DNA from: Octopus vulgaris
Taxonomy: Eukaryota
Length of the DNA stretch: 64,000 nucleotides
Direction: 5' to 3'
NCBI GenBank assembly: GCA_951406725.2
Contig: OX597827.1
Coordinates: 23,436,001 to 23,500,000 of the forward strand
Shown: positions 423 through 48,503 of the stretch, piece by piece
How the letters are laid out: every line of letters begins with the position of its first letter
Position numbering within the stretch: position 1 is the first letter of the stretch
Position numbers and translations under genes: made by a program
Notes under the pieces: model-generated
Databases searched by the model: none
What the model was told of the DNA's origin: nothing
What the model saw: the letters and a program-made list of their open reading frames with translations, nothing else

Positions 423-767
423 TCATTCATACACTCCCATACACACAAGCATATATAAATATATACCTATATACACACACGTACACACACACACACACAC
501 ACACACTCACACACATACATATACATGCACACGTACACGCACACACACGTACACACACACACATAGAGATGTATATTTTCTGTTATTTTCACTGTTTTCA
601 ACGAAATTTGAAACGATGATTTGGATATTTACTCTTAATACCTTCTTAGCAGATTGAAAAACGAAAAAGACGCTAGTCGCTGTTGTGTACGTCGCTGAAG
701 AATAGTTTCTCTCTTTTATGATGACAGTGTGTTCATAACACACTCGGCTTATTAGTACAAATGATTA

Positions 768-807
768 TTAGACACCAGTGTTTCGACATGTTCTGTCTCT
801 TCAGTCA
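768..807 (-). ncRNA. Minimal type I hammerhead ribozyme motif (weak stem I)
   Basis: Minus strand reads tga-CTGAAGA-GACA gaaca TGTC-GAAA-C ACTGGT G-TC^taa. The core is canonical, stem II has 4 bp, loop III is near-palindromic and the cleavage triplet is GUC. Stem I pairs only partly. Confidence 0.6.
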
Positions 808-1473
808 GAAGTACTTGGAACTTTAAGCCAAAGCTTTTTCATTCTCCTCTTTCCACTTTCCTTCCTCTGTTTTCCAGTTCTCTTCAAACCACCAGTGACG
901 TATACTCAACCTTTTGACACCATCACTACACCTCCCCGTCTGGTGTGTACTTGGTTCCAAAAGAGCATAGTATTGCCTACACTCATCGTTACACATACGA
1001 AGGTCTTTGTTCGTATGACCGACTTTATGTCGTTTTTAGACGTTACATGCGCACACAGATTTGTACGCGAACCTACATATGCACCTCTAAAACGAATACA
1101 GGCGTATCTGTGCCTCTCCACTCTACAAATGCTTATATGTAAATATATGTATATTCAGTGGGGGTATATTTACTATTATCTACAATGGTACTATATATAT
1201 TTTACTGTGTAGATTCGTCTTCACCCACACATGTGTATGCTTATGTATATATATACATATATTCATATTTGTTTACATTTATCTTTAAATATCCATAAAC
1301 CCTACTAACAGTAATGCACAGACTATTACGATTTTCCACACAACCAATCGGATCGATGGAATAGCTTTGATTGATGTTTGTGAAAACCAAAATGATTTTT
1401 CACAACTTTTATGATCATAACATAATATTAACAGAAATAAATTTTAAGTTACTGCTATAAATTTCACTTACAA

Positions 1474-6467: not shown

Positions 6468-7335
6468 TTTACATACATATATATATATATACATATACAT
6501 ACATACACACACATATACAAACATGCACACACACATACACATACACACACATACACATACACACACACACATATATAATATACGTGTGTGCGTATGCATG
6601 TATATAAGTACGTATAAGCGCGCGCGCGTGTATATATATATATATGAAATTCAGTTTGTATATTTCTTTCTTTATCCCTTAATCCATCACAGCAATTGTA
6701 TCCAGATTTCAACACCACCTTCAGCGGTCCTTTTTCCCACGTAATCAGTGTCGTGACTACACAATAAAACAGCGGCCATCTTTTGTCGTGATTACCAATG
6801 TTAGCCAAGTGGATCGGAGAGTAAGTGGCGGCTATTCTGCACTTATAACGCTTTACTGATTGTTGGTGCCAGACAGCAGAGTCTCGATCGTCTCTGATAT
6901 TCATGGCAGATTCATTGCATAAGTTCTCTAAACTTTGTGACAGGCAATTACATAATTATATCTTTAAATGCTATATTCTTGGTTTGTGCAATTTGTTTTT
7001 TTCTTTTTCCTTTTCTTTTCAATATAAATTCTTGACATGAAAGTGTGAAGTACGACGTTTTGGCTTCTGACAGTAACTCTTGTTCTTGTTCGTTCTTTTT
7101 GCACGCCATAATAGTGAGTTTATAATAATTTTTTCCAGTGTCTTGCACTCCTACACACTCAGCAACAACAACAACAACAACACACACACGCATACACACA
7201 TATACACATACACACAAACGCACACATACATTACTGATGTCATACGAATCAACAAACTTCGAGAGATCGTGAAATGATTCTTTTTTCGTTTTCTTTTGAA
7301 TGGTGGCTCTGGAAGCAGATGAAGCTATAAATGAC

Positions 7336-17901: not shown

Positions 17902-18321
17902 AAAGGCGGCGAGCTGGCAGAAACGTTAACAGGCCGAGCGAAATGCTTAGAGGTATTTCGTCTGCCGCTACGTTCTGAGTTCAAATTCCGCCGAGGTCGA
18001 CTTTGCCTTTCATCCTTTCGGGGTCGATTAAATAAGTACCAGTTACGCACTGGGGTCGATGTAATCGACTTAATCCCTTTGTCTGTCCTTGTTTGTCCCC
18101 TCTGTGTTTAGCCCCTTGTGGGTAGTAAAGAAATAGGTATTTCGTCTGCCGTTACGTTCTGAGTTCAAATTCCGCCGAGGTCGACTTTGCCTTTCATCCT
18201 TTCGGGGTCGATTAAATAAGTACCAGTTACGCACTGGGGTGGATATAATCGACTTAATCCGTTTGTCTGTCCTTGTTTGTCCCCTCTGTGTTTAGCCCCT
18301 TGTGGGTAGTAAAGAAATAGG
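17902..18321 (+). mobile_element. SINE family B dimer with 13-bp target-site duplication
   Basis: Two ~185-bp units follow one head. TATTTGAAACCCT occurs at 17889-17901 and 18322-18334. Confidence 0.9.
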
Positions 18322-19225
18322 TATTTGAAACCCTGCTTGCATTTGTGCAGCTACAAACGATCGGCATCCTCTTAGCAGTGGGGTATATTGTTAGACGTTT
18401 ATTCATAAAATATTTTTGTATCTCTTCAGTTAATTTCGTTTATTTTCCAATCGCTTATTTTGAAACTATAGGCTGTAATTAGGATTGCTAGATTAATCGT
18501 GGTAGTCATTTTATTTTTTTTACATTTAGCTCGATCTTTAAGATGTGTTTTTACTCCCTTGATGTATCCGTTCTTATTTTTATTTTTCATGGTCGCTCTT
18601 CATATTCTTTCTGTCTTCTTCATTAACCGTTTTGTAATTGTAGATTCCGTTTCAGGCAATTATTTTTTAAAGTCACAGTTAATTTCAAGCACCAATGATT
18701 CCATTCAGGCTAACTTTTCTCTTTTAAATATAGATTTTATATGATTATTCGTCCCAAATTCCATGCCAATTCTATCCGCCAAACTCAAGTTTCGAATCCT
18801 CCGAATGGAATGAAGGGTGGATTTCCTTGTTTCTGATCTTATAACCATAACCTCTTGGATTAATTCTGATGAGGAGAAAATTAAGGCAAAACGGAACGGA
18901 CATAAAAAAAGAGAGCTTTTTGTAGAAAATGCCGCAATTGATGTGTATATTAGCAGATGTCATTGAAACAAGTGATATTGGATGGGACTAGGGTTCCACG
19001 AGATTGTGCTGTGCATTAACAAATTTATTTCTTGCAGAGTGATATTTTGTAGGTTTCTAGATCGTTTCCTACCCAAGACCATGGGGCACTGTTAAACCCT
19101 TACAAAATCAATTCAGGCACAACTTCAGCCTTTTTTGTTTTGAGCGGCAGTTTCCCAGTGCCATACAGAATAGCAATAGTTCGTCTTTTACTTCGTATAG
19201 GCCACGCTGATAGTTGTGAAATCCG

Positions 19226-29982: not shown

Positions 29983-30413
29983 CATACATATACATATATA
30001 TAGACGTGCTGCACACACGTGAATCTGTATGGGACACAGATAGGGAGAATGGTGGAAAGAAAACTCGTGAGTGTGCGGGAGATGAAGGATTGTACTATGT
30101 TTAGTATTTCCAGATGAAAGAATCGCGTTATGGATGAGTGATTACGTCATCGAATTCCTGGCTAATGCCAAAGATGGTAGAGCGTTAACGCTTTCGGCAA
30201 AACATTTCACTTTAAATTCAATATTAATTAACCGATCTTTAAATATCGATGTGGCAAAACCTGTATTTGCGTCTGTGAGTCTGTGTGTCTCTGTATTTAC
30301 CTTTGGCATGTATGCGTGGAATAAAAGTGTGTACATGTGTAGTTACGTACTAGTGTATATGTGTTCATATGTGAATGTGTATGTGTGAATGTGTATGTGT
30401 GTGTGTATATGTG

Positions 30414-30449
<36 letters not shown>

Positions 30450-30658
30450 AGTTGTGTTTATGTCTGTTGCTAACGTTATGGATCCTAAGTTAAGGCCTTC
30501 GTATAATCGAATGACAAAATCACATTACATTGGCCAAGTTCGGGACTCGCTTCCATTTCATAACCGAACCCTTTTGGGGAATATAATGAACACCACAACT
30601 TTTTATTTCATTACTAGTCTATGTAATCTGATCTATGTGTGTGTGTGTGTTTGTCTAT

Positions 30659-31095
<437 letters not shown>

Positions 31096-31103
31096 ACTTG
31101 ATC

Positions 31104-31177
31104 AGATTTGCATGAAAAGTGCGCTCTCACATTGTGCGCATTGGCACAATGTGAGAGTGCATCTTTGATGCAAGTCT
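31104..31177. other. 74-nt near-perfect hairpin (~34-bp stem, 6-nt loop)
   Basis: AGATTTGCATGAAAAGTGCGCTCTCACATTGTGC gcattg GCACAATGTGAGAGTGCATCTTTGATGCAAGTCT. Confidence 0.8.
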
Positions 31178-31675
31178 AAGAAACTAATACTAATGTTTAA
31201 AGTTGCAAATATGGTGGAAATCTTCGCTTTGACCTTTTTTCGTAAACTGGCGTTGAAATCAGAGTTGGTACCGAAACAACTGTAACGGGTCGTTGAAGAT
31301 GCATTAAAGTATTTCTTTTTATCTTATTGTTAGGATTACGTTTTTACTCTTCGCTAAACTCACGCAGAAATCTGGATTTTCTACACTTGAAGAACATAGC
31401 TACGATTCCGGAAGTGTAGAAAGCCTAACCGCTCGAGTTGCGTGCTACATTGAAAATATATACTCTTTTTACCCTCCCAGGATCTTATATATACATACAT
31501 ACATACATATATATATATACATATATATACATACATAAATATATGTATATATGTATGTATATGTGTATTTATATATATATGTATGTATATGTGTATTTAT
31601 ATATATGTATGTATATGTGTATATATATATATATGTATGTATATATGTATATATATATATATATATGTATATGTG

Positions 31676-31711
<36 letters not shown>

Positions 31712-32242
31712 TGTATGTGTATGTGTATGTATGTACATACTGAAAGAAAACGGGAGAGCATGTGTGTGTGTGTGTGTGTGGTTTGTGTATAGTGATGATA
31801 AAAGGCATCCCAGTCACAACCCCTTCGTTTTGTTTTAGGCTCACTGCTTACCGCCTCTACTTGGACTTCATTATCCAGCAGGCAATTCTTTTTCTGAAAG
31901 TATAAGTTTGCGATTTGAGGGCTATTGTTTACTACTTCTTGTAGGTACACAACCACGTGCAGGCTCCTTCGTTTATTTACAGAAAACTGAAGCCTACTCG
32001 AGTAAATCGAAATTATGGAAAGGAAATTATGTTTTTGAGAAATATATCAGTGTTTAAAGAAATATATAATCCTTTGAGAGAAATATGTTCAGAGAAACAG
32101 ATTTATGTTTTGAGAAATTTATATATATATTTGGAGAAATAGATTTATGCTTTGCAAAATATATTTAACAAAATATATTTAACAATAAGCTATTTAAGAA
32201 ACACACAAAAACCGTTAGATTCACTTCAACATTTAAATTTAA

Positions 32243-32293
32243 TTTGTCAAAATATTTTCGTCGCTTTGAACCCGCGACCTGTTCACTGACAAA
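32243..32293 (-). ncRNA. Hammerhead-like motif with G3-C8 covariant core (GUGAACA), copy 1
   Basis: Minus strand reads TTTGTCA-GTGAACA-g-GTCGC gggttcaaa GCGAC-GAAA-ATAT-TT^TGACAAA. Stem I has 7 bp, stem II has 5 bp, and stem III is the palindrome AAUAUU. Confidence 0.65.
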
Positions 32294-32402
32294 ATTCCGT
32301 GCAGTATCTGAGAAAGTAACAGTTAGTTCATGGTGTGTGTGTGTGTGTGTGTGTGTGTGTACATACATATATATCATGATCTAACAGGTCACAGCACGGA
32401 AT

Positions 32403-32455
32403 TTTGTCAGTGAACAGGTCGCGGTTTCAAAGTGACGAAAATATTTTGATACAAA
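32403..32455 (+). ncRNA. Hammerhead-like motif with G3-C8 covariant core, inverted copy 2
   Basis: Reads TTTGTCA-GTGAACA-g-GTCGC ggtttcaaa GTGAC-GAAA-ATAT-TT^TGAtaCAAA. The stem II change is a tolerated G-U pair. Confidence 0.6.
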
Positions 32456-33466
32456 TTAAATTTAAACATAGGGCCATAAATGGTAGAACCAGTAGAGTTT
32501 CAGATAAAATTGTGGTGGTGATGGATGTCGGAATCGGTGGCGCATTTCCATGTGATATTCTACGTTGCGTGTTCAAATCCTGCTGACGGTGACTTTAACT
32601 TTCATACTCGTCAGTTCGATAAAATAATGGTTTCTAAATCTAGTACAAGACCAGAAATTTTAGGGGAGGCTGTAAGTGGATTTACATCGATGGATATTTA
32701 TTTTAGCGTTCCCGAAAAGATGAAAGGCAAAGTCATCCTCGGCAGAATATGAACTCAGGACATAAAGAACCAGTGGAAATGCCATTGAGCATTTTGTCCA
32801 ACATGATAACGAGGTGGCGGTGGCGGTGATGGTGATGACGTGGTAGTGGTGGTAGTGATGACGTGCTGGTGGTGGTGGTGGTGGTGGTAATGGTGATAAC
32901 GTGGTGGTGATGACGTAGTGGTGATGGTGATAGGGATAACGTGGTGGTGGATGATGATGACCTGGTGGTGGTGGTGGTGGTGGTGGTGATAACGTGGTGG
33001 TGGTGGTGGTTTAGCCCTAGGTTAGCCCTAAACAAGCAGATCTGTGATCAAAGACAATCGACAACCCCAGTAAGATCCTTCTGTATTCTACGCAGACGCC
33101 CCTGGACCCACAACAATCAAGGACTCGCATTATTTAGTATAATCAGCATTTTGAGACGACAGAAGTTTGTTGCTGGTCGATTGGCTTCTACTTCTAGCAA
33201 CTCATGTGACCACGTAGAGACACCCCCTCCTTCCTCCGTGACGGTTGTCATTGTTCTTCTTAGATACATTAACAATATTCTTCCTATTCTTCTGATATTC
33301 CTGCTTTGGCTGCTACACTCGTTCGTTCTTCTTCTTGTTCTTCTCACTCATGTTATTGTTGTTGTTATTGCTGATGTTGGAGCAGGTTCTACAGATTACC
33401 ATTGTTCTTGCTGTTTGGATTTTGTCCTCGTTATTGTTGCTGTTGTTATTGTTGTTGCTGTTGTGG

Positions 33467-33498
<32 letters not shown>

Positions 33499-33944
33499 GC
33501 TGTTGTTGTTTGTTGTTGCCGCTAGGATTTTCCGTTTGATTATAATATATAAAACTATATTTCTGTGGATCCTTTGAAGATATCATGGCTGTATGATCAG
33601 ACCTATGTTATTTCAAGTGTTTTTCTTGGTCGACCATTCAACAGCAATGGCGACGGCAAATAGCTTTTTATAAACCTCTTTCTATCACATTCTCCTCTAT
33701 AATATCCCACAACGTTTTTACACCTACACTAGCGCCTACACTTTCTCCACTTTCACACATGTATGCATGTATGCATGTGTGTGTGTGTGCTTGACAAAAA
33801 TAAATATGAATATAATACAATCACTTGTGTATCTATTTATAAATGTAAACATGCATGCATTTAGGTATATATATATATAGATGAAAACAAGCAGATATAT
33901 ACATTTACTTATTATATATATACATATATATATATATACATACA

Positions 33945-33996
<52 letters not shown>

Positions 33997-34010
33997 CATA
34001 CATACATACA

Positions 34011-34057
<47 letters not shown>

Positions 34058-34106
34058 TTCCTCTACATAATATCTTCATTCATTCTTTTGTTGTCATACC
34101 ATTACT

Positions 34107-34159
<53 letters not shown>

Positions 34160-34166
34160 TAATAAT

Positions 34167-34208
<42 letters not shown>

Positions 34209-34301
34209 CGGGAAGCTTTATGAAAATAAACAAAAGACGAAGGCAGGTGGAATACAAACAAACAATTATATTAATATGGCGCTCAGGAATATAAATAAAA
34301 C

Positions 34302-34341
34302 AAGTCTTTTACGTTTCGAGCCTACGCTCTTCAACAGAAAG
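34302..34341 (-). ncRNA. Hammerhead-like motif, CUGUUGA-core family, copy 2
   Basis: Exact reverse complement of 15461-15500, inside a ~155-bp island (34208-34362) between (TA)n tracts. Confidence 0.7.
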
Positions 34342-34358
34342 ATACACAGAAAAGAAAC

Positions 34359-34402
<44 letters not shown>

Positions 34403-34404
34403 TT

Positions 34405-34820
34405 TAGGCGTGGTTCTGTAGTAAGAAGCTTGCTTCTCAACCACATTGTTCCTGGTTCGGTCCCACTGCGTGGCACCTTGGGCAAGAGTCTTTTACAATA
34501 GCCCCGGGCCAAACAAAGCCTTGTGAGTGGATTTGGTAGGCGGAAACTGAAAGAAGCACGTCGTGTATATATATATGTGTGTGTGTGTGTGTGTGCATGT
34601 GTGTTTATGTATATGTTTGTGTGTCTGCGTTTCTCCAACCATCATCACTTGACAACCGATGTTGGTGTGTTCACGTCCCTGTAGCCTAGCGGTTCGGCAG
34701 AAGAGATCGATGAAATAAATGCCAGACTACCAAAAAAAAAAGTCCTGGGATCAATTCGCCCGACGAAAGCGATGCTCCGGCATGGTCGCACTCAAATGAC
34801 TGAAAAAAGTAAAAGAATAG
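34405..34820 (+). mobile_element. SINE family A copy
   Basis: Family A head, internal microsatellite and tail. Confidence 0.85.
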
Positions 34821-34890
34821 AAGAATAAATAAATAAATATATATATATATATGTAGAGAGAGAGAGAGAGAGAGGCAGACAGGGAAACAG

Positions 34891-34973
<83 letters not shown>

Positions 34974-35442
34974 CAAATAGCTAGCTAGATAGATAGATGT
35001 ACTCATGCATATATGTTTGAAACTATAGAGCATACGAACAAATTGTGGAATATATGTTTGCCATCTTTTTGTATACATTTAATGCATATAGAGTCGTCAA
35101 ATTTGTAAATGAGACATTCACGAACACACACACACTTACATACATGCACACATTTCGCAGATATATATATATATATATATATATATCTGTGTGTGTATGT
35201 GTGTGTACATACATTTATTACAAATGTTGTGCATACTTAAAATAATGTATGATATAGGTGCATATGAGCTTAGAGCTGTATGTACACACGCATAGATTGC
35301 AGATCTATGCACTTACAAGCACAGATGCAAGGGCACACACATCCATAAGCATATTTATACATACATACATACATACATACATACATACATACATACATAC
35401 ATACATACATACGTAGACACATACACAGATACATACATACAT

Positions 35443-41435: not shown

Positions 41436-42020
41436 AAGGCGGCGAGCTGACAGAAACGTTAGCACACCGGCCGAAATGCTTAGCAGTATTTCATCAGCGG
41501 CTACGTTCTGAGTTAAAATTCCGGCGAGGTCGACTTTGCCTTTCATCCTTTCGGGGTCGATAAATTAAGTACCAGTTACGCACTGGGGTCGATGTAATCG
41601 ACTTAATCCGTTTGTCTGTCCTTGTTTGTCCTCTCTATGTTTAGCCCCTTGTGGGTAGTAAAGAAATAGATACTTCGCCTGCTGTTACGTTCTGAGTTCG
41701 AATTCCGCCGACGTCAACTTTACCTTTATCCTTTCGGGGTCGATTAAATAAGTACCAGTTGCGCACTGAGGTCGATATAATCGACTTAATCCGTTTGTCT
41801 GTCCTTGTTTGTCCCCTCTGTGTTTAGCCCCTTGTGGGTAGTAAAGAAATAGGTATTTCATCTGTCTTTACTAACGTTCTGAGTTCAAATGCCGCCAGGG
41901 TCGATTTTATGTTTCATCCTTTCGTGGTCGATATATTAAGCACCAGTTGTATACTGGGGTCGATCTAATCGACTACCCCCATTCCCCCAAAATTTCGGGC
42001 CTTGTGCCTCGAGTAGAAAT
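41436..42020 (+). mobile_element. SINE family B trimer (head + 2 internal units + core/tail)
   Basis: Units restart at ~41486, ~41670 and ~41854. The last unit carries the monomer tail CCCCCAAAATTTCGGGCCTTGTGCC. Confidence 0.88.
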
Positions 42021-47820: not shown

Positions 47821-47875
<55 letters not shown>

Positions 47876-47880
<5 letters not shown>

Positions 47881-48433
47881 ATATTTCGGAATGGTCATAT
47901 TGCCAGTTTAGCCAATAAAAACACACGCACTATATCTTTGGTGTTATTTTGCTTCAGTGTTATTTATTTTTTACATTAATCTTAATCTTATTTCGGCTAG
48001 AGTTCTTTCGTCACACTCCTGTGACCGCATCAGTGGTCCTTTGTTTTCTTCTTTCTTATTTGTGTCTCTCCTTACTAACCGTCAGCCATTTTGTATTTCT
48101 ATTGTATGTCTTCATTTGCGCATGCTTATATCTCTATGTGCGTCTATGTTTATTTACACACACTAAATAAACATAGACGCACATAGAGATATAAGCATGC
48201 GCAAATGAAGACATACAATAGAAATACAAAATGGCTGACGGTAGGGAGAGACACAAATAAGAGAAGAAAACAAAGGACCACTGATGCGGTCACAGGAGTG
48301 TGAAAACTCTAGCCGAAATAAGATTAAGATTAATGTAAAAAATAAATAACACTGAAAAAAAATAACACCAAATATATAGTGCGTGTGTTTTTATTGGCTA
48401 AACTGGCAATATGACCATTCAGAAATATAACAA
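47876..48433. repeat. Fold-back palindrome, ~275-bp arms, 7-nt CACACAC loop, containing an HHR-like motif
   Basis: Arms are 47876-48156 and 48164-48433. Minus strand 47994-48039 reads CTGATGC-g-GTCAC aggagt GTGAC-GAAA-G AACT C-TA. Confidence 0.92.
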
Positions 48434-48503
48434 TATCTGTTTCAACACACGACTTCACATAAAAAATCTTGCACAACAAATATTTAAACGTATATATATA
48501 TAT

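What the first reader, a model, noticed from the sequence alone, without database searches (positions are those of the whole stretch)
32231..32466. Inverted pair of HHR-like motifs with a swapped G3-C8 core (GUGAACA)
Seen: two ~70-bp inverted copies around a (TG)n spacer. Each has a stem I of up to 7 bp, a 5-bp stem II, GAAA and a palindromic AAUAUU stem III, but GUGAACA replaces CUGANGA. Established: C3-G8 is a tertiary Watson-Crick pair in the active hammerhead, and compensatory C3G/G8C double mutants recover activity. Inference: a natural covariant ribozyme that standard CUGANGA searches would miss. The predicted triplet is UUU, which is atypical.
Basis: partly seen in the sequence, partly recalled or inferred. 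Interest (0 to 1): 0.75.

Follow-up and report, generated by a model that had tools for sequence, protein, structure and literature searches.

The report
Swapped-core hammerhead in octopus retrotransposon
About 7,000 copies of a jumping gene in this genome (likely an octopus) carry a hammerhead-shaped RNA motif in which two paired core letters have traded places, while related elements keep the usual pair, so it is likely a natural variant of a self-cutting RNA that pattern searches for the standard core would miss, although cutting is untested.

Summary
[quoted passage not shown] The 18-base core occurs exactly at 6,996 places in the genome, and 9 of 30 sampled loci are head-to-head pairs. 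Copies within the family cannot test covariation: the swap is fixed and departures look like decay. Between families the test works. At the same place, the sister family and metagenome relatives carry C3-G8 or U3-A8, with compensatory changes in all three stems. A model built without this genome's sequences ranks the two arms 1st and 3rd in the window. UUU is not atypical: 24 of 56 published PLE hammerheads have U17. Against strong activity, most short copies start about 60 nt upstream of the cut site, so their RNA templates were uncut. No published natural G3-C8 turned up in eight searches of a partial library. Two earlier AI notes of this scan report G3-C8 motifs behind Penelope-like RTs in other genomes (unchecked). 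Verdict: a new natural variant of a known ribozyme, cleavage untested.

The parts
32185..32332 (-). Left copy: 5'-truncated pLTR fragment of family A Penelope-like element (upstream region, hammerhead motif, first codons of the ORF)
   Evidence: 92% identity over 148 nt to family copy L075; family linked to RT/GIY-YIG ORF
32243..32293 (-). Intact type I minimal hammerhead motif with G3 (32286) and C8 (32281); predicted cut 3' of U17 (32250)
   Evidence: best match in the 64-kb window (23.6 bits, E 0.00066) to a model built without this genome's sequences
32306..32312 (-). Likely transcription start region (A at 32309, in TCAGAT), 23 nt 5' of G3; family copies pile up here, often with an extra G
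   Evidence: the reading as a capped start is inference
32185..32193 (-). Position of the element's start codon (ATG in family copies, ATA in this copy) and first codons; the copy ends here
   Evidence: L257 runs on from the motif into the ORF N-terminus, which is homologous to family B's
32333..32360 (.). (GT)14 spacer at the head-to-head junction; resembles the CA-rich microsatellite region that lies upstream of the motif in the element itself
32360..32466 (+). Right copy: inverted, more decayed pLTR fragment of the same family
   Evidence: 77% identity to L075, 11-nt upstream deletion
32402..32454 (+). Second G3-C8 hammerhead motif (G3 32410, C8 32415, U17 32446) with a 2-nt insertion in stem I
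   Evidence: (21.5 bits, third in window)
47873..48496 (.). Comparison element: head-to-head pair of sister family B pLTRs; motif at 47992-48041 (-) has C3-G8, A9C and AGAACU stem III

Best explanation
The two arms are head-to-head, 5'-truncated end repeats of a high-copy Penelope-like retrotransposon, and each carries the element's minimal type I hammerhead motif, in which the C3-G8 core pair has been replaced by G3-C8; the motif likely still self-cleaves, weakly and only as a dimer or with protein help. Shown: the element has RT, a CxxxCxxC linker and a GIY-YIG endonuclease. The motif lies on the sense strand about 1 kb after the stop codon and about 57 nt (from U17) before the next start codon. 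The sister family and other relatives carry C3-G8 or U3-A8 at the same place. Inferred: the swap was kept by selection on the 3-8 Watson-Crick pair. Transcription starts about 23 nt 5' of G3. Reverse transcription begins inside the RNA near the ORF start, as shown for the anole element PAc, and runs back to the cap, which gives the many ~200-nt copies and the inverted partners. Two sense RNAs would pair their AAUAUU palindromes to complete stem III and cut after U17. The inverted pair in the window is a passive insertion product: a read-through RNA would fold into one long hairpin rather than a double hammerhead.
For: Family size: 6,996 exact matches to the 18-mer core, 0 to the reversed control. 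Link to the ORF: GIY-YIG 24.9 bits, cut-off 22.6, in L094; G3-C8 motif on the sense strand after the ORF in 9 of the 10 family A loci L132-L141; L257: motif, then ATG, then ORF. Family B (55-58% aa identity) has the motif at the same place with C3-G8, and compensatory changes against family A in stem II (G-C vs A-U), stem III (A-U vs G-C) and stem I (U-A vs C-G). A descriptor blind to positions 3 and 8 found 9 sense-strand hits in 62 metagenome loci (6 C-G, 2 U-A, 1 A-G) and 1 antisense hit, against 0.25 per shuffled strand set. In the model alignment 24 of 25 distinct rows pair at 3-8 (17 C-G, 5 U-A, 1 G-C, 1 U-G), a pair that the model did not contain; 93% of all cells paired against 61% in shuffles. 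The tree puts family A beside family B (100/100) and U-A on three separate branches. All other conserved core positions are kept. If two of 13 core positions had changed at random, the chance of hitting 3 and 8 and restoring a pair is about 1/78 x 1/3 (my arithmetic). C3G/G8C partly rescues a PLE hammerhead (PMC11167929). Inverted 5'-truncated copies are typical of PLEs (PMC8557442; PMC4209133); 9 of 30 loci chosen by the 3' end have one adjacent.
Against: No cleavage data. Genomic copies show no sign of cut templates: of 64 core-spanning copies, 63 end within about 10 nt of the putative start, upstream of the motif. Among 30 copies truncated or altered near the cut site, only 5 begin at the predicted base, 2 of these explained by stem I microhomology, and there is no sharp peak. 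G3-C8 was seen in only one lineage here (1 of 25 distinct rows), so its own covariation rests on one event. I chose the 15 training sequences by eye, all with a paired 3-8; unpaired or decayed ones were left out of training but recovered. Subfamily differences avoid the core and fall mostly in loop II, but this is not significant (Fisher p 0.27). The sister family carries A9C, which shows that this clade tolerates core changes. No family A copy with an uninterrupted full-length ORF was seen among 145 and 79 protein matches. The double-hammerhead fold (-25.4 kcal/mol) is less stable than an alternative dimer (-30.6).
Confidence: 0.7

Rival explanations
1. Catalytically dead hammerhead fossil: the motif descends from a PLE hammerhead but no longer cuts, and it spread by hitch-hiking because cleavage is not needed for insertion.
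For: HHR mutants do not affect PAc insertion in vitro and uncut RNA is the main template (PMC11167929). Family A copies pass through the motif uncut. The rescue by C3G/G8C is only partial, and the motif also has U17 and an unstable stem III.
Against: Only the two partners of one pair changed, to a complementary pair, while U4, G5, A6, A9, G10.1-C11.1, G12, A13, A14, A15.1 and U16.1 are kept across a branch of 0.35 aa changes per site. Stems I-III changed by compensation relative to family B. Uncut templates are also the rule for PAc, whose motif does cut.
Confidence: 0.15
2. The fold, including the 3-8 pair, is kept for a job other than cutting, such as binding of the element's protein or control of translation in the ~120-nt leader.
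For: The motif sits between the inferred start of transcription and the start codon. PAc's motif cuts only with protein present. Cervera and de la Pena leave non-cleavage functions open.
Against: What is conserved is the catalytic core and a cleavable H17 (A, C or U in all motif rows), as expected for selection on chemistry.
Confidence: 0.1
3. The inverted pair itself is the functional unit, either as a cis double hammerhead or as the terminal inverted repeats of a MITE-like DNA element.
For: Two near-complementary arms around a short spacer.
Against: The arms lie on opposite strands, so one RNA holds one sense and one antisense copy and folds into a -139.6 kcal/mol hairpin. The arms end at different places and most family copies are single. 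The family belongs to an RT-encoding element. The C3-G8 sister family forms the same kind of pair.
Confidence: 0.03
4. Chance resemblance to a hammerhead.
For: No Rfam hammerhead family among 73 matches at E up to 10 in 30000-35000 or at gathering score in the window.
Against: Positional homology and compensatory changes across families. Rfam also missed family B's C3-G8 motif in the same window.
Confidence: 0.02

Closest known systems
Minimal type I hammerheads of Penelope-like elements (min-HHRs; Cervera and de la Pena 2014, PMC4209133)
   Same: Located in the pLTR; extra nucleotide between 9 and 10.1; G10.1-C11.1; palindromic stem III; mostly solo copies, some as opposite-strand pairs; U17 common (24 of 56 in Fig. 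S3).
   Different: G3-C8 instead of C3-G8. None of the 56 representatives has it; the only 3-8 covariant that paper reports is U3-A8. No cephalopod is in that set.
Natural U3-A8 hammerheads (Perreault et al. 2011, PMC3088659; S. mansoni Cercyon PLE, PMC4209133)
   Same: Natural compensatory exchange of the 3-8 tertiary pair.
   Different: U3-A8 needs two transitions; G3-C8 needs two transversions from C-G and puts a pyrimidine at position 8.
Engineered C3G/G8C double mutant (PAc element, PMC11167929; original work by Martick and Scott 2006 cited there, not read)
   Same: Same core; partial rescue of cleavage shown in a PLE hammerhead.
   Different: Laboratory mutant of a Poseidon-clade element; here the swap is the wild-type state of a family with about 7,000 copies.
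Neptune-type EN+ Penelope-like elements (described in PMC8557442)
   Same: RT, CX2-5CxxC linker and C-terminal GIY-YIG; pLTR with optional tail; inverted 5'-truncated copies; (TA)n flanks.
   Different: Placement against named Neptune reference sequences was not tested; the 3' region here is about 1.1 kb and rich in microsatellites.
Animal non-LTR retrozymes (bioRxiv 10.64898/2026.07.22.740005)
   Same: Short non-coding pLTR-related sequences with a type I hammerhead.
   Different: Retrozymes are tandem arrays; these copies are dispersed fragments of a coding element.

Membership tests
Minimal type I hammerhead of PLEs | Literal CUGANGA core | tested here: not met
   GUGAACA: positions 3 and 8 swapped, the other five match. 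Filed as a variant, not as a consensus member.
Minimal type I hammerhead of PLEs | Watson-Crick 3-8 pair | tested here: met
   G3-C8 is complementary; 24 of 25 distinct homologous rows pair at 3-8. Shown by sequence, not by structure.
Minimal type I hammerhead of PLEs | Stems I and II around the core, G10.1-C11.1, one extra nucleotide after A9 | tested here: met
   7-bp and 5-bp stems in the left arm; compensatory changes between families. The right arm has a bulged stem I.
Minimal type I hammerhead of PLEs | GAAA, A15.1-U16.1 and a short palindromic stem III | tested here: met
   GAA + AAUAUU
Minimal type I hammerhead of PLEs | NUH cleavage triplet | tested here: met
   UUU fits NUH (rule as in PMC8495972); C. 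gigas PLE motif has UUU
Minimal type I hammerhead of PLEs | Located in the pLTR of a Penelope-like element, sense strand | tested here: met
Minimal type I hammerhead of PLEs | Site-specific self-cleavage | not testable with these tools
   Needs an in vitro assay. Genomic 5' ends show no peak at the site.
EN+ Penelope-like element, Neptune type | Single ORF with RT and C-terminal GIY-YIG | tested here: met
   YVDD motif and GIY-YIG; Pfam GIY-YIG above cut-off in 1 of 2 proteins, RVT_1 below cut-off (13.7 vs 29.6 bits)
EN+ Penelope-like element, Neptune type | CX2-5CxxC linker between RT and EN | tested here: met
   CX3CXXC in family A, CX4CXXC in family B; feature as described in PMC8557442
EN+ Penelope-like element, Neptune type | pLTR with optional tail, partial tandems and inverted 5'-truncated copies | tested here: met
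   Two preferred 3' ends about 55-60 nt apart and 9 of 30 adjacent inverted pairs; L257
EN+ Penelope-like element, Neptune type | Phylogenetic placement with named Neptune elements | not tested
   No named reference sequence was in hand; the tree holds only unnamed relatives
Non-LTR retrozyme | Tandem non-coding repeats each with a hammerhead | tested here: not met
   Copies are dispersed, single or inverted, and run into an RT ORF
MITE / TIR DNA transposon | Fixed terminal inverted repeats on both ends of every copy | tested here: not met
   Most copies are single; arm lengths vary

The most novel reading that the evidence does not exclude
The G3-C8 hammerhead is an active, naturally swapped ribozyme that works as a dimer-triggered off-switch: it sits about 60 nt behind the cap of the element's own mRNA and removes the cap only when two element RNAs meet. 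The slower swapped core would let most templates escape, which would help explain why this family reached about 7,000 copies. If the G3-C8 motifs noted in other genomes by this scan hold up, swapped cores are a recurring, overlooked class, and Penelope elements scored as 'lacking a hammerhead' need rescreening.
Probability: 0.15. Interest if true: 0.72.

Novelty: new variant of a known kind. Interest (0 to 1): 0.45.

Why it matters
It would be a natural, high-copy example of the purine-pyrimidine inversion of the hammerhead's 3-8 tertiary pair, so far known to me only from mutagenesis. That adds evolutionary support that the pair, not the identity of base 8, is what selection keeps. In practice, fixed CUGANGA or UUGANAA descriptors miss such motifs, so ribozyme censuses and statements that an element lacks a hammerhead should allow all four pairs. 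The sister families (G3-C8 with A9; C3-G8 with C9) in one genome give a ready wild-type pair for testing what PLE hammerheads do, which is still an open question. The result is expected from biochemistry, so it is a useful variant rather than a surprise.

Tried and rejected
Rfam: no hammerhead family among 73 matches at E up to 10 in 30000-35000 and 0 matches at gathering score in the window. This says nothing about the swap, since family B's C3-G8 motif was missed too.

Within-family covariation: 22 places have both 3 and 8 changed against 6,996 with G3-C8. None is C3-G8 and 8 are A3-U8, the double transition expected from decay. Of 88 copies chosen without regard to the core, 78 are G-C, 4 G-G, 3 G-U, 1 U-C, 1 A-C and 1 deleted (a locus may be counted twice where search sets overlap). 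Uninformative.

Subfamily differences versus motif positions: not significant (p 0.27).

A pile-up of 5' ends at the predicted cut site: not found; 5 of 30 begin there, and starts are spread from -4 to +7.

RNA evidence: no RNA holder listed on record among 21 runs. Contigs of 4 runs gave no splice joint and no pile-up of ends, and cannot show starts or strand.

Reading the sequence before the motif as a 3' splice site (ACTAAC then pyrimidines then AG): no shared upstream exon among the copies, so a transcription start is preferred; splicing is not excluded.

More relatives: viral contigs gave 0 of 30 candidate stretches. Prokaryote assemblies gave 2 loci with only weak motif matches, neither G3-C8. 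Fourteen further family B-like loci gave no G3-C8 among the 10 alignments shown and the 2 further loci read. A genome-wide scan with the RNA model was not available, so other G3-C8 families in this genome are not excluded. Lunse et al. 2017 (PMC5785218), the paper most likely to list PLE hammerhead variants, is not held.

Full report
1. Observation. The two diverging copies are real. The left arm (minus strand) reads 7-bp stem I, GUGAACA, an extra G, 5-bp stem II closed by G10.1-C11.1, GAA, AAUAUU, U17 and the other strand of stem I (coordinates). The right arm has the same core but a 2-nt insertion in stem I and a wobble in stem II. Folding supports stems I and II in the left arm (z -2.83 for 58 nt) and hardly in the right (z -0.88).

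2. It is a dispersed repeat. A search of the own genome (G000, 2.80 Gb) with the arm gave 805 candidates, with the downstream part 1,624, and with an upstream 24-mer 1,019 places. The exact 18-mer around the core occurs at 6,996 places, with 0 for the reversed control. The best named protein relative is labelled Octopus vulgaris (58% identity), so the host is likely an octopus. Contigs of runs labelled as three organisms hold the stretch.

3. It belongs to a Penelope-like element. Copies that extend upstream run through about 1.1 kb of microsatellite-rich sequence into the end of an ORF with a GIY-YIG domain, a CX3CXXC linker and an RT with YVDD. In 9 of the 10 family A loci L132-L141 the G3-C8 motif lies on the sense strand after the stop codon. 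In L257 the motif is followed by an ATG and an N-terminus homologous to that of a sister family. Copies have two preferred 3' ends about 55-60 nt apart, often followed by (TA)n, and 9 of 30 loci chosen by the 3' end have an adjacent inverted copy. These are the pLTR, tail and inverted-copy features described for PLEs (PMC8557442, passages). Opposite-strand pairs of minimal hammerheads 100-700 bp apart were already noted in PMC4209133. The inverted pair is therefore ordinary. One RNA across it would hold a sense and an antisense copy and fold into a long hairpin (-139.6 kcal/mol), so it cannot act as a cis double hammerhead.

4. Covariation within the family is uninformative. Only 22 places have both positions changed, none to C3-G8 and 8 to A3-U8, the double transition. 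Of 88 copies picked by flanking sequence or by RT, 78 have G-C and the rest are single changes or a deletion. The swap was fixed in the source element.

5. Covariation between families is clear. Family B (55-58% aa identity; ORFs of up to 1,312 codons without a stop) has at the same place C3-G8, A9C, stem II GUCAC/GUGAC, stem III AGAACU and U17. Against family A this is a compensatory change in each of the three stems as well as at 3-8. Sixty-two metagenome loci that encode relatives of the RT were scanned with a descriptor blind to positions 3, 8, 9 and 17. It gave 9 sense-strand hits (6 C-G, 2 U-A, 1 A-G) and 1 antisense hit, against 0.25 hits per shuffled strand set. A covariance model built from 15 of these metagenome motifs, with no sequence from this genome and no 3-8 pair in its structure, ranks the left arm first, a family B copy second and the right arm third in the window (E 0.0007, 0.0009, 0.0025; next 0.29). 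In the 37 matches it aligned (25 distinct), the 3-8 columns hold 17 C-G, 5 U-A, 1 G-C, 1 U-G and 1 mismatch. Overall 93.2% of cells pair against 61.3% in shuffles and 26-54% in slid controls. The alignment is fitted to the stems, I picked the training set by eye, and related rows are not independent. A tree of 26 RT-EN proteins (L221 left out for short coverage; L223 and L224 not included) places family A beside family B at 100/100, within a clade that holds C-G (L164, L175) and U-A (L163) motifs, and puts U-A on three separate branches. G3-C8 is thus most simply a derived state that arose once here.

6. UUU is not odd. In Fig. S3 of PMC4209133 (supplement parts 1-2 of 3) I counted U17 in 24 of 56 motifs, and the Crassostrea gigas motif ends in UUU. 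None of the 56 has G3-C8.

7. Where the copies start. Of 64 core-spanning copies, only 1 matches 10 or more bases upstream of the AG that lies 23 nt before G3. Where the base before that AG is not the element's own C, it is G in 80 of the first 100 of 694 places, against 23% expected from base composition (p 3e-33), and the bases further up are unrelated. An untemplated G at the 5' end is a known mark of copying through an mRNA cap (recalled, not from a call; one search found no paper on this for PLEs). I infer a transcription start there. With reverse transcription starting inside the RNA near the ORF start, as shown for PAc (PMC11167929, main text), this explains the abundance of ~200-nt copies. 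It also means their templates were not cut by the motif, and there is no peak of 5' ends at the predicted cut (5 of 30). PAc behaves the same way: uncut RNA is the main template, no RNA-seq reads end at the cut site, yet its motif cuts with protein help and C3G/G8C partly rescues it.

8. Mechanism and odds. Most likely (0.70) the motif is a still-active but weak minimal hammerhead that needs a second sense RNA to form a 6-bp AAUAUU stem III, or the element's protein. The monomer with a closed stem III costs 5.4 kcal/mol; the double hammerhead scores -25.4 kcal/mol, about two open monomers, and an alternative dimer scores -30.6. Rivals: dead fossil (0.15), non-catalytic role (0.10), functional inverted unit (0.03), chance (0.02). 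Shown: anatomy, family link, cross-family covariation. Inferred: selection on the pair, the start site, dimer cleavage.

9. Literature. Natural U3-A8 is published (PMC3088659, section 8; PMC4209133). G3-C8 appeared only as a laboratory variant (PMC11167929; PMC8495972, passages; PMC3884650, passages). Eight searches found no natural G3-C8 and no report on octopus PLE hammerheads. The library is partial: Lunse et al. 2017 is not held, and I did not read the supplements of PMC3088659 or PMC11167929, the third part of the PMC4209133 supplement (only searched) or any figure images, which may bear on the novelty claim. Also seen: PMC6765202 (passages and part of section 11), bioRxiv 10.64898/2026.07.22.740005 (part 1 of 5), passages of PMC6962438, PMC6155905 and PMC10085705, and a search of the one supplementary file held for PMC8557442. 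Two earlier AI notes of this scan describe G3-C8 motifs behind Penelope-like RTs in other genomes; I did not check them, and there were no notes on this genome or sequence.

10. Verdict. Observation confirmed; interpretation partly supported. This is a new natural variant of a known ribozyme in a known kind of retroelement, with good comparative support and no direct proof of cleavage. Interest 0.45.

Noticed in passing
window 47873-48496: Head-to-head pair of the sister Penelope-like family B; its hammerhead motif has C3-G8 but C at position 9 instead of A, as does metagenome relative L163. Family B has many ORFs of about 1,310 codons without a stop, so it looks recently active.
   Followed up: partly
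family A copies genome-wide; window 32309 (-): 5' ends pile up 23 nt before G3 with an excess untemplated G (80 of 100), suggesting cDNA copied through the cap of an uncut transcript; possible genomic support for internal priming in PLEs.
   Followed up: partly
window 765-812 (-): Weak match to the hammerhead model (14.2 bits, E 0.29) with a CUGAAGA core; may be a decayed copy of another PLE family.
   Followed up: no
L175:4965-5017: Metagenome PLE hammerhead motif with an inverted U15.1-A16.1 pair and C3-G8.
   Followed up: no
L131:8845 (+), L141:6018 (+), L136:6773 (-), L277:4620-4671 (+): Other hammerhead-like motifs in this genome, two with U3-A8 and two with C3-G8, apparently from further repeat families.
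   Followed up: no
window 17951-18326 and 41502-41974: Tandem copies of a ~184-bp repeat unit, likely a SINE-type element (recalled resemblance to the octopus OK repeat; not tested).
   Followed up: no
L289 and L290: Penelope-like RT relatives on short contigs filed in bacterial MAGs; likely eukaryotic host DNA binned by mistake.
   Followed up: no
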